Part shown: positions 1 to 3,000 of the stretch, one piece after another | Layout: every line of letters starts with the position of its first letter | How positions within the stretch are numbered: position 1 is the stretch's first letter | Assembly: GCF_030013205.1 (NCBI RefSeq) | Contig: NZ_CP122648.1 | DNA from: Escherichia coli | Lineage (GTDB): Bacteria > Pseudomonadota > Gammaproteobacteria > Enterobacterales > Enterobacteriaceae | DNA length: 64,000 nt | Strand: one strand, 5' to 3' | Program-made: the position numbers

Positions 1-3000
1 ATGACGTTACCGGTGCGGGCGACACGGTGATTGGCGTCCTGGCGGCAACGCTGGCTGCGGGTAATTCACTGGAAGAAGCCTGCTTCTTTGCCAATGCGGC
101 GGCAGGCGTGGTGGTCGGCAAACTGGGGACATCCACGGTTTCGCCGATCGAGCTGGAAAATGCAGTACGTGGACGTGCAGATACCGGCTTTGGTGTGATG
201 ACCGAAGAGGAACTGAAGCTTGCTGTAGCGGCGGCGCGTAAACGCGGTGAAAAAGTGGTTATGACCAACGGCGTCTTCGACATCCTGCACGCCGGGCACG
301 TCTCCTATCTGGCAAATGCCCGCAAACTGGGTGACCGCCTGATTGTCGCCGTCAACAGCGATGCCTCCACCAAACGGCTGAAAGGGGATTCCCGCCCCGT
401 TAACCCGCTCGAACAGCGTATGATTGTGCTGGGCGCACTGGAAGCGGTCGACTGGGTGGTGTCGTTTGAAGAAGACACGCCGCAGCGCTTAATTGCCGGG
501 ATCCTGCCAGACCTGCTGGTGAAAGGTGGCGACTATAAACCAGAAGAGATTGCCGGGAGTAAAGAAGTCTGGGCCAACGGCGGCGAAGTGCTGGTGCTCA
601 ATTTTGAAGACGGTTGCTCGACGACCAACATCATCAAGAAGATCCAACAGGATAAAAAAGGCTAACCGGAAAGCGTTTCACAGATCTCGCTTCGTACCTG
701 GCAGGCCTATTGACGCTGTTGTTTTTTCAACCTAGAGTAAAGGAACAAGGGTAAGGGAGGATTTCTCCCCCCTCTGATGAGTTGTTAGTAAGTCGGGAAA
801 CTTAACAGTAACAACACAACCAGTATGATGACGAACTTCATCATAACCCTTTCCTTCTGTAAGGCCCCTTCTTCGGGAGGGGCTTTCCCGTTTCAGCCCC
901 TTGCTGACTCCCCGATTGTTGATGAGCGCCGGACCCCGCGCAACGCTTTCCCTGAGGCAGTTTTGCCTTCCCCGAGTGGTCACGCAAAACGCTGCAACAG
1001 CCTGATCATTTGCACCTTTTAGCGGAACGCAGATATAAAAAATCCCCGGCTTTTTGGGCCAGGGATATGTGTTAATGAAACCTTCTTGACGCTGATTTTT
1101 TTTCAACCTAAAGTAAAGGAACAAGGGTGAGGGAGGATTTCTCCCCCCTCTGATTGGCTGTTAATAAGTGGCGAAACTTACAAGTAACAACACAATCAGT
1201 ATGATGACGAGCTTCATCATAACCCTTTCCTTCTGTAAGGCCCCTTCCTCGGGAGGGGCTTTCCCGTTTCAGCCCTTTGCTGACTTCCCGATTGTTGATG
1301 AGCGTCAGACCCCGCGCAATGCTTTCCCAGAGGCAGTTTTGCCTTCCCCGAGCGGTCACGCAAAAGGCTGCAACGACCTGAGCATTTGCAGTTTTTTGCG
1401 GAATGCAGATATAAAAAATCCCCGGCTTTTTGGGCCAGGGATGTTCATAGTTGAAAATTTATTCTACGTTTTCGGCGACGGGAGTTGTTGAGGTTAAGGG
1501 TGAAGTCAATGCCGCCAGCGAGCCGCCAGAAACACCGATTTCATTGAGCAAGGAGTCAATCAGTGGTGCCTGTGTGCGGTAAGAGAGTGCGGCAGACAAT
1601 GCCTGTTCTGCCAGGTTTCCGCCACTAACGCTGCCTGATGCTGCATCCCCCGCAGCACCACCTCGGTTTAATCCATCGACCTGAATAATCTTGATGCCGT
1701 CGATAGACTTCATCGGCTCAACGGATTTCTCTATTACTGCAGGTAACGACTGTAATAGCGCCAGTTTGAATTTAAGGCTGGTTTGTTCATCAGAAAGTAC
1801 GTTGATAGCGTCGTTCAGCGCACGTTGCGCTTCTGCTTCCGCCAGACCCTTTTTACGCGTAGCTTCGGCTAACTCAACGATTGCCGCCGCCTGCATCTCT
1901 GCGGCTTCTTTCTCTGCTTTCGCCCGCACGGTCAGTTCAACCGCTTTGGTTTCTGCATCCTGCGCGGCAGCGATTAGGGCAACTTGTTTAGCACGATCGG
2001 CTTCTGCGGTCTGGCGAGTTGTTTCTACGTTTTGCTGGGCGCTTACCGCTTCTGCAAGTGCAAGGTTGGCACGCGCTTCCGCTTGTGACTGCTGTTCCGA
2101 TTTGGCGGCAATAGCGATCGATTTCGTCTGGTTGGCGATTTCGGTGACCTGCTGCTGTTCGATCTCTTTAATGCGAACTTCACGTTCAGCTTCAACTTTT
2201 CTGGAACGGACGGCCTGTTCGCGGTCGATTTCTGTTTCCTGAATCTGTCGTTCAGCCAGAATTCGCGTCTGCTCTGCTTCCCGACGACGCTCGGCCTCAA
2301 AAGCCGCAATTTTCGCATTCTGCTCAGCGGTACGGGTTTTAACCTGCTGCTCCTGCTCAAGCGTCATAAACGCTTCTTGTTGTTCAATCTCCAGCTTCCG
2401 CGAAAGCGCATCACGGTTTTTCTCACGCACCGCAACTTCTACATCCTGTTCAACTTCGTTACGTTCGCGACGACGGCGCTCCGTCTCCTGCGTCAGCTTG
2501 GTTAAACCTTCGGCGTCAAAGGCGTTGTTAGGATTGAAATGTTCTTTCGACGTCTGGTTAAAGTTGGTAAGTGAAACGCTTTCCAGTTCCAGGCCATTTT
2601 TCGACAGATCTTCAGCTACGGTATTTTGTACGCCCTGCACGAAGTTCTCGCGGGTATCCTGTAACTCATGCATGGTCATTTGTGCAGCTGTTGCACGGAG
2701 GGCATCGACAAATTTATCTTCAACCAACATACGTAAGTCTTCAGGCGACAGGGTGCGTTGCCCCAGCGTCTGGGCGGCGGTGGCAATACCTTCCACTGAC
2801 GGTTTTACCCGCACAAAGAAAGCGACAACGACATCGACGCGCATACGATCTTTCGTAATCAGGCTATCAATGGTTGAGCGGCTGACTTCCAGCTTCAGAG
2901 TATTCATATTGATGGGGATTATTTCATGAAAGATCGGCATCACGATTGCGCCACCGCTCATTACCACTTTTTGCCCACCTAAACCAGTACGAACAAAAGC

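What the first reader, a model, noticed from the sequence alone, without database searches (positions are those of the whole stretch)
700..1460. Tandem Ibs/Sib type I toxin-antitoxin pair with 19-aa toxin ORFs missed by the ORF track
The hldE-yqiK spacer holds two copies of a roughly 376-bp repeat. Each carries a minus-strand 19-codon ORF (MMKFVIILVVLLLLSFPTY at 785-844; MMKLVIILIVLLLVSFATY at 1161-1220) and a plus-strand antisense transcript unit with a TTGACG-N17-TA(G/A)AGT promoter and hairpin/T-run terminator. The large ORFs reported here by the track are artefacts. The two toxin copies differ at 4 codons.
Basis: partly seen in the sequence, partly recalled or inferred. Interest (0 to 1): 0.5.

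Follow-up and report, generated by a model that had tools for sequence, protein, structure and literature searches.

The report
Known E. coli ibsE/sibE–ibsD/sibD toxin-antitoxin pair

Summary
Confirmed and already known. Window 710-1442 holds two 357-nt direct repeats, 91.6% identical, with a 376-nt period. Each scores 139-143 bits against Rfam SIB_RNA (gathering score 56). The whole 811-nt spacer is 100% identical to several complete E. coli genomes, where RefSeq annotates both ORFs as Ibs family toxins. It is syntenic with K-12 yqiK-sibD/ibsD-sibE/ibsE-hldE. The hldE-proximal unit is ibsE/sibE (IbsE with L4F). The yqiK-proximal unit is ibsD/sibD (IbsD with A18T). Small corrections: the Sib RNAs are 144 nt (745-888 and 1121-1264). 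Their terminator hairpin is followed by only three T. The ORFs differ at 4 residues but at 6 codons. The repeat unit also contains the ibs promoter and a minus-strand terminator hairpin. One strain-specific nuance: here the SibE "TRD2" linker is identical to SibD's. Published swap experiments suggest that this would let the two antitoxins cross-repress. This allele occurs in about 3% of complete E. coli genomes. Interest is low.

The parts
710..1066 (.). Repeat unit 1 (ibsE/sibE unit): sibE promoter, overlapping sibE/ibsE genes, ibsE promoter, and a minus-strand terminator-like hairpin
   Evidence: Ungapped 357-nt alignment with 1086-1442, 91.6% identity, period 376
710..738 (+). sibE promoter: -35 TTGACG (710-715), 17-nt spacer, -10 TAGAGT (733-738)
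   Evidence: Promoter scan. Identical to the K-12 sequence upstream of annotated sibE.
745..888 (+). SibE antitoxin sRNA, 144 nt, starting with A (ACAAGGG...) and ending after the hairpin GGCCCCUUCUUCGGGAGGGGCUUUCC
   Evidence: 140/144 identity to K-12 annotated sibE b4611. Rfam RF00113 139.4 bits. Fold -50.6 kcal/mol, z = -3.1.
785..844 (-). ibsE: 19-codon toxin ORF plus stop, MMKFVIILVVLLLLSFPTY (K-12 IbsE with L4F). The Shine-Dalgarno-like AAGGAAAGGG lies just upstream.
   Evidence: RefSeq CDS WP_001387082.1 'ibsE, type I toxin-antitoxin system Ibs family toxin' at the same position in identical DNA.
745..908 (-). ibsE mRNA (inferred extent). The start at 908 is placed by homology with the mapped K-12 ibsD start; the 3' end lies near the SibE start.
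   Evidence: Inference from Han et al. 2010 construct coordinates (-21 to +165 of ibsD), mapped onto K-12 and the window.
915..943 (-). Inferred ibsE promoter: -35 TTGCGC (943-938), 17-nt spacer, -10 AACAAT (920-915)
   Evidence: Read from the sequence. Its position relative to the mapped ibsD start is inferred. It was not found by the consensus scan.
1042..1066 (-). Terminator-like hairpin ATCCCTGGCCCAAAAAGCCGGGGAT followed by TTTTTTATATC. It lies between the ibsD and ibsE units and is a duplicate of the yqiK terminator.
   Evidence: Terminator scan; part of the repeat.
1086..1442 (.). Repeat unit 2 (ibsD/sibD unit)
1086..1114 (+). sibD promoter: -35 TTGACG (1086-1091), 17-nt spacer, -10 TAAAGT (1109-1114)
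   Evidence: Identical to K-12. [quoted passage not shown]
1121..1264 (+). SibD antitoxin sRNA, 144 nt, starting with A
   Evidence: 140/144 identity to K-12 annotated sibD b4447. Rfam RF00113 143.4 bits. Fold -57.4 kcal/mol, z = -4.9.
1161..1220 (-). ibsD: 19-codon toxin ORF plus stop, MMKLVIILIVLLLVSFATY (K-12 IbsD with A18T)
   Evidence: RefSeq CDS WP_100249717.1 'Ibs family toxin' in identical DNA.
1121..1284 (-). ibsD mRNA (inferred extent): start at G1284, about 164 nt, 63-nt 5' UTR
   Evidence: Han et al. 2010 primer and construct coordinates, mapped.
1291..1319 (-). Inferred ibsD promoter: -35 TTGCGC (1319-1314), 17-nt spacer, -10 AACAAT (1296-1291)
   Evidence: Sequence, with placement inferred.
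1418..1442 (-). Terminator-like hairpin plus T-run directly after the yqiK stop (yqiK is 1459-3120 on the minus strand)

Best explanation
The spacer contains two tandem type I toxin-antitoxin modules of the Ibs/Sib family. ibsE/sibE lies next to hldE and ibsD/sibD lies next to yqiK.

In each module the minus strand gives a roughly 164-nt mRNA for a 19-residue, very hydrophobic membrane peptide (Ibs). The plus strand gives a 144-nt small RNA (Sib) from a near-consensus sigma-70 promoter. Sib overlaps the whole ORF and its ribosome-binding site in perfect antisense.

Sib pairs with its own ibs mRNA through two recognition regions. TRD1 lies inside the ORF. TRD2 is the single-stranded linker over the translation-initiation region. 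Pairing then spreads, translation is blocked, and RNase III cleaves the duplex, so the toxin is not made.

What is shown here: the sequence, structure, synteny and annotation identity. What is inferred: the mechanism, which is taken from K-12 experiments and has not been tested in this strain.
For: - Rfam SIB_RNA hits of 139 and 143 bits against a gathering score of 56.
- Intact 19-codon ORFs, 18/19 identical to K-12 IbsE and IbsD, with all nine family-invariant residues M1 M2 I6 I7 L11 L12 S15 F16 Y19.
- 100% identity of the whole spacer to complete E. coli genomes in which RefSeq annotates both ORFs as Ibs family toxins. A match is present in 5425 of 5426 genomes.
- K-12 synteny yqiK-sibD/ibsD-sibE/ibsE-hldE, with 140/144-nt identity to each annotated sRNA.
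- Promoter-like sites 6 nt upstream of the homologous RNA 5' ends.
- A stable conserved fold. In the alignment of K-12 SibA-E with the two window RNAs, 9 of 44 consensus pairs show compensatory changes.
- Mechanism from the literature: Han et al. 2010, PMC2943612 (TRD1/TRD2, cognate specificity, RNase III cleavage). Fozo et al. 2008, as cited there. PMC7373196 (ibsD-sibD dsRNA captured in vivo, ibsD mRNA stabilised in rnc mutants). PMC2887945 (tandem ibs-sib duplication, Ibs ORFs missed by ORF callers).
Against: Nothing contradicts it, but several things are untested or weak.

- Expression and toxicity were not tested in this strain.
- Both toxins carry one substitution relative to the tested K-12 peptides (L4F and A18T).
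- K-12 itself labels IbsD only 'putative toxic peptide'.
- An NCBIfam HMM scan of the peptides, each padded to 20 aa, gave no Ibs hit. This is uninformative for so short a peptide.
- The ibs promoters are weak matches and are inferred by homology only.
Confidence: 0.97

Rival explanations
1. The modules are correctly identified, but one or both are functionally decayed in this strain. The toxin could be inactivated by L4F or A18T, or not expressed, which would leave an sRNA gene without a working toxin.
For: Each peptide has one non-synonymous change relative to K-12. K-12 IbsD is only 'putative'. About 9 of 40 evenly sampled E. coli records carry a single unit here, so a second unit is dispensable.
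Against: Both ORFs, start codons, SD-like sequences, promoters and terminators are intact. The changed positions 4, 17 and 18 are naturally variable in the family (L/H/F at position 4). The F4 IbsE allele (WP_001387082.1) recurs in unrelated strains. All invariant residues are kept.
Confidence: 0.08
2. The long ORFs that the ORF track reports across the repeats (130 aa at 732-1124 minus, 83 aa at 1108-1359 minus, 65 aa at 825-1022 plus, 107 aa at 1168-1491 plus) are the real genes, and the small ORFs are incidental.
For: They exist as open frames in this window.
Against: They are not conserved as frames. In K-12 the same DNA gives different fragments of 76, 67, 59, 47 and 43 aa. A 1-nt indel near window 906 and other changes shift them. 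None is annotated in any of the eight RefSeq records inspected. They overlap an experimentally known sRNA and its terminators.
Confidence: 0.01
3. A purely structural intergenic repeat with no gene function, in which the 19-codon ORFs arise by chance.
For: It is a repeated intergenic sequence with hairpins.
Against: The covariance-model hits are far above threshold. The peptide motif is conserved across five K-12 paralogues despite about 15% nucleotide divergence. Published experiments exist on K-12.
Confidence: 0.01

Closest known systems
E. coli K-12 ibsE/sibE (b4666/b4611)
   Same: Same position next to hldE. The sRNA is 140/144 identical, with the same promoter, TRD1 region and terminator. 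The peptide is 18/19 identical.
   Different: IbsE has L4F. The variable part of the TRD2 linker reads CUGU, as in SibD, instead of the K-12 AUAC (window 857-860).
E. coli K-12 ibsD/sibD (b4664/b4447)
   Same: Same position next to yqiK. The sRNA is 140/144 identical. The promoter and start context are identical, the TRD2 linker is identical, and the peptide is 18/19 identical.
   Different: IbsD has A18T, caused by 2 nt in the TRD1 region (GCTGCG to GTGGCG). There is one further change in the ORF, one C fewer in the terminator stem and a U-to-C change in the loop.
E. coli K-12 ibsC/sibC, the mechanistic model (Han et al. 2010, PMC2943612)
   Same: Same architecture: the sRNA covers the whole ORF and its ribosome-binding site. 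The consensus fold is the same and the peptide motif is the same.
   Different: It is a single unit at a different locus (fau-serA spacer). Its TRD1 and TRD2 sequences differ, which is the published basis of cognate specificity.
ldr/rdl and zorO/orzO tandem type I toxin-antitoxin loci of E. coli
   Same: Chromosomal type I modules duplicated in tandem within one intergenic region, with small hydrophobic toxins often missed by ORF callers (PMC2887945).
   Different: Their toxin and RNA families are unrelated. Their antitoxins overlap only part of the mRNA or are encoded divergently (general knowledge).
Salmonella IbsA (bioRxiv 10.1101/2025.05.26.656083)
   Same: A 19-aa Ibs family toxin.
   Different: It is reported to inhibit the Fo sector of ATP synthase, with His3 and Leu11 required. 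The window peptides have Lys3 and keep Leu11. Whether they share the target is unknown.

Membership tests
Sib antitoxin RNA (Rfam RF00113 SIB_RNA) | Match to the family covariance model at or above the gathering score | tested here: met
   139.4 and 143.4 bits against a gathering score of 56, full model length 1-147, not truncated
Sib antitoxin RNA (Rfam RF00113 SIB_RNA) | Roughly 140-nt RNA with its own promoter and terminator hairpin, and the family fold | tested here: met
   Promoter-like sites lie 6 nt upstream of the homologous 5' ends. The 144-nt RNAs fold at z = -3.1 and -4.9 with a terminal GC hairpin. The consensus fold is shared with K-12 SibA-E, with 9 of 44 pairs showing compensatory change.
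Ibs toxin family | 18-19-residue hydrophobic peptide with the conserved pattern MM(K/R)x(V/L)II...LL..SF..Y | tested here: met
   Alignment with K-12 IbsA-E: all nine invariant positions are kept, and the peptides are 18/19 identical to IbsE and IbsD respectively
Ibs toxin family | Match to a curated protein profile | tested here: inconclusive
   An NCBIfam scan of the peptides padded to 20 aa returned no Ibs model. The peptides are too short for the Pfam tool. RefSeq nevertheless names identical proteins 'Ibs family toxin'.
Ibs/Sib type I toxin-antitoxin module | Toxin ORF and its ribosome-binding site lie entirely within, and antisense to, the sRNA gene | tested here: met
   ORFs 785-844 and 1161-1220, with the SD-like sequence about 5-14 nt upstream of each start codon, lie inside 745-888 and 1121-1264
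Ibs/Sib type I toxin-antitoxin module | Orthology with the K-12 sibD/sibE locus (same flanking genes and order) | tested here: met
   hldE - E unit - D unit - yqiK in both
Ibs/Sib type I toxin-antitoxin module | The peptide is toxic when over-expressed, and the cognate Sib RNA prevents this | not testable with these tools
   Shown for K-12 alleles in the literature (Fozo 2008 as cited in PMC2943612). The L4F and A18T alleles are untested.
Ibs/Sib type I toxin-antitoxin module | Both transcripts are made in vivo | not testable with these tools
   No expression data for this strain. In K-12, ibsD-sibD dsRNA was captured in vivo (PMC7373196) and SibD/E transcripts were analysed (PMC12956327).

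The most novel reading that the evidence does not exclude
In this lineage the two tandem modules may have lost part of their orthogonality.

- Observation: the SibE linker that forms TRD2 (CCCUUUCCUUCUGUAAGG) is identical to SibD's. The two units are identical over Sib nt 92-127 (window 836-871 and 1212-1247).
- Comparison: in K-12 and five other two-unit strains sampled, identity stops inside the linker at nt 112-114.
- Why it matters: Han et al. 2010 showed that giving SibC the TRD2 of SibD is enough to repress ibsD. SibD and SibE of this strain are therefore predicted to repress both ibsD and ibsE, leaving TRD1 as the only discriminator.
- Population context: among the sampled strains, TRD1/peptide alleles and TRD2 alleles (CUGU/CUAU/AUAC) appear shuffled between the two positions. 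The unit number also varies between one and two. This suggests recombination or gene conversion acting on specificity modules.
Probability: 0.45. Interest if true: 0.25.

Novelty: already known. Interest (0 to 1): 0.08.

Why it matters
It matters little beyond correct annotation. Nineteen-codon toxin genes and their antisense RNAs are routinely missed by ORF-based tracks, and the spurious long ORFs across the repeat should be discarded. The only point with research value is the allele-level observation. This strain's SibE shares SibD's TRD2, and TRD1 and TRD2 alleles are mosaic among E. coli strains. That offers a natural test of how paralogous antisense antitoxins keep or lose cognate specificity.

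Tried and rejected
- NCBIfam HMM scan of the two peptides, each padded with the in-frame upstream Val to reach the 20-aa minimum. It gave no Ibs model and only an irrelevant E = 0.25 hit. The peptides are too short for profile tools, so I relied on direct alignment and RefSeq naming.
- Fozo et al. 2008 (PMC2597788) is not held in the library. Its results are cited through Han 2010 and other papers that cite it.
- A hybrid sibE haplotype (L4 codon plus SibD-like TRD2) was searched for and has no exact match in 5426 genomes. The F4 change and CUGU do not always go together: strain CUVET20-1573 has F4 with AUAC. The exact 80-nt counts (167 for the window haplotype, 1130 for K-12) therefore underestimate the individual allele frequencies.
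- The long ORFs were considered as real genes and rejected.
- The consensus scan finds no minus-strand promoter for ibs. The ibs promoters were placed only by homology to the mapped K-12 ibsD start.
- Folding the 164-nt ibs mRNAs in batch mode failed on the length limit and was not pursued.
- No tRNA genes were found in the window.

Full report
**Observation**

The region was read on both strands.
- The two minus-strand ORFs are at the stated coordinates. They translate to MMKFVIILVVLLLLSFPTY* (785-844) and MMKLVIILIVLLLVSFATY* (1161-1220).
- The repeat finder reports one direct-repeat family with a 376-nt spacing.
- A local alignment extends it without gaps to 710-1066 against 1086-1442, 327/357 = 91.6% identity (confirmed by blastn).
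The scan found 4 sites in 1 kb, against 0.6 expected from shuffles.
- The ORF lister has a 20-aa floor and does not list the 19-aa ORFs. It lists 130-, 83-, 65- and 107-aa ORFs across the repeats instead.

**Identity**

- A scan of the whole window against Rfam gives two full-length hits to RF00113 SIB_RNA. They lie at 710-859 (139.4 bits) and 1086-1235 (143.4 bits), against a gathering score of 56.
- The 811-nt spacer is 100% identical to several complete E. coli chromosomes. Matches occur in 5425 of 5426 complete E. coli genomes, with a median of 4 places per genome.
- In the identical strain K_EC180, RefSeq annotates hldE, a 60-nt CDS 'ibsE, type I toxin-antitoxin system Ibs family toxin' (WP_001387082.1), a second 60-nt 'Ibs family toxin' (WP_100249717.1) and yqiK. 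These sit at exactly the window coordinates.
- The window is 99.994% identical to that strain over 50 kb.
- K-12 MG1655 annotates the same spacer as yqiK - sibD/ibsD - sibE/ibsE - hldE.
- Aligning the K-12 sRNA genes to the window gives 140/144 identity for sibE with unit 1 (745-888) and 140/144 for sibD with unit 2 (1121-1264). The cross-comparisons give 130-132/144.
- So the hldE-proximal unit is ibsE/sibE and the yqiK-proximal unit is ibsD/sibD.
- The window IbsE is K-12 IbsE with L4F. The window IbsD is K-12 IbsD with A18T.
- Both keep all nine residues invariant among K-12 IbsA-E and the two window peptides.

**Anatomy**

- The Rfam hit coordinates include the promoter. The transcripts, by homology with the K-12 annotation, start at A745 and A1121, 6 nt after the -10 hexamers. 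They end at 888 and 1264, after an 11-bp GC-rich hairpin with a UUCG loop.
The terminator scan does not call it.
- The predicted folds are stable: -50.6 and -57.4 kcal/mol, z = -3.1 and -4.9.
- The consensus fold of these two RNAs with K-12 SibA-E has 44 pairs, 9 of them with compensatory changes.
- On the minus strand, the ibsD transcription start can be placed from the published construct coordinates of Han et al. 2010 (nt -21 to +165; primers). In K-12 the fragment is exactly 186 nt. This puts +1 at the G corresponding to window 1284, preceded by AACAAT (1296-1291) and TTGCGC (1319-1314) with a 17-nt spacer.
- By homology the ibsE start is G908, with AACAAT at 920-915 and TTGCGC at 943-938. 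These promoter assignments are inferences.
- The repeat unit also contains a minus-strand terminator-like hairpin with a T-run. It occurs once directly after the yqiK stop (1442-1418) and once between the two units (1066-1042).
- The duplicated segment therefore comprised terminator, ibs promoter and the overlapping ibs/sib genes.

**Long ORFs**

The four long ORFs of the window are not conserved as frames. K-12 has different fragments of 76, 67, 59, 47 and 43 aa in the same DNA, and none is annotated in the eight RefSeq records inspected.

**Mechanism (from the literature, not tested here)**

- Five Sib RNAs of about 140 nt in K-12 each repress a cognate ibs mRNA that encodes an 18-19-residue hydrophobic peptide. 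Over-expression of the peptide affects the envelope and is lethal. The sRNA spans the whole ORF and the translation-initiation region (PMC2943612, citing Fozo et al. 2008).
- SibC has two independent target-recognition domains. TRD1 lies within the ORF and TRD2 lies over the initiation region. Pairing spreads from them, and RNase III cleaves the duplex. Swapping either TRD of SibC for that of SibD confers repression of ibsD.
- ibsD-sibD dsRNA is captured in vivo, and ibsD mRNA is stabilised in rnc mutants (PMC7373196).
- SibC/D/E are largely NAD-capped in stationary phase. This depends on the +1A and the 35-bp minimal promoter (PMC12956327). The window's sibD promoter and start context are identical to K-12.
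- A Salmonella Ibs homologue is reported to inhibit the Fo sector of ATP synthase (bioRxiv 10.1101/2025.05.26.656083).
- Tandem duplication of ibs-sib in one spacer, and the tendency of ORF callers to miss Ibs, are both already described (PMC2887945).

**Strain-level nuance**

- The two units differ at 30 positions in all. Within the 144-nt sRNA the differences fall at 12 positions, clustered in the TRD1 region.
- Unlike K-12, the variable tetranucleotide of the TRD2 linker is CUGU in both units. The units are therefore identical over Sib nt 92-127.
- In K-12 and five other two-unit strains the identical run ends inside the linker, at nt 112-114.
- Given the swap experiments of Han et al., this predicts cross-repression between D and E in this lineage. 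That is an inference.
- The exact 80-nt sibE haplotype of the window occurs in 167 of 5426 genomes, the K-12 haplotype in 1130, and a hybrid haplotype in none.
- Among eight sampled strains, peptide/TRD1 alleles and TRD2 alleles (CUGU/CUAU/AUAC) are combined in different ways. They can even sit at the other position, as in DG351-2.
- About 9 of 40 evenly spaced records have only one unit, for example NGF1.

**Verdict**

The locus is already known and already annotated in RefSeq, so interest is low.

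Noticed in passing
window 836-871 and 1212-1247 (Sib nt 92-127): The two units are identical through the whole TRD2 linker, so SibE carries SibD's CUGU instead of the K-12 AUAC. In six other two-unit strains the identity stops inside the linker. The exact 80-nt sibE haplotype is present in 167 of 5426 complete E. coli genomes. This predicts D/E cross-repression.
   Followed up: partly
hldE-yqiK spacer in other E. coli (L003-L008): Unit number varies: about 9 of 40 evenly sampled records have a single ibs/sib unit, for example NGF1. Peptide/TRD1 alleles (E-type, D-type, Q17 and H17 types) and TRD2 alleles are combined in different ways among strains. 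This suggests recombination or gene conversion.
   Followed up: partly
window 1042-1066 and 1418-1442 (minus strand): Identical terminator-like hairpins with a T-run. One lies directly after yqiK and a duplicate lies between the two toxin-antitoxin units, so the duplication carried the yqiK terminator with it.
   Followed up: partly
window 21338-21461 (+) and about 21471-21929 (+): An Rfam STnc490 hit (146.5 bits) sits immediately upstream of an IS200-type transposase ORF. This is the structured left end of an IS200C copy inserted downstream of parE.
   Followed up: partly
window 22041-24182 (-): The TonB-dependent siderophore receptor ORF is intact here (713 aa) but annotated as frameshifted in the 99.994%-identical strain K_EC180. 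It heads an iron-siderophore ABC transporter cluster between parE and ygiN.
   Followed up: no
window 4701-4849 (+): FMN riboswitch (120.9 bits) upstream of ribB, as expected.
   Followed up: no
window 44639-44702 (-): Rfam ES173 sRNA hit (99 bits against a gathering score of 90) in the yqhD-dkgA spacer.
   Followed up: no
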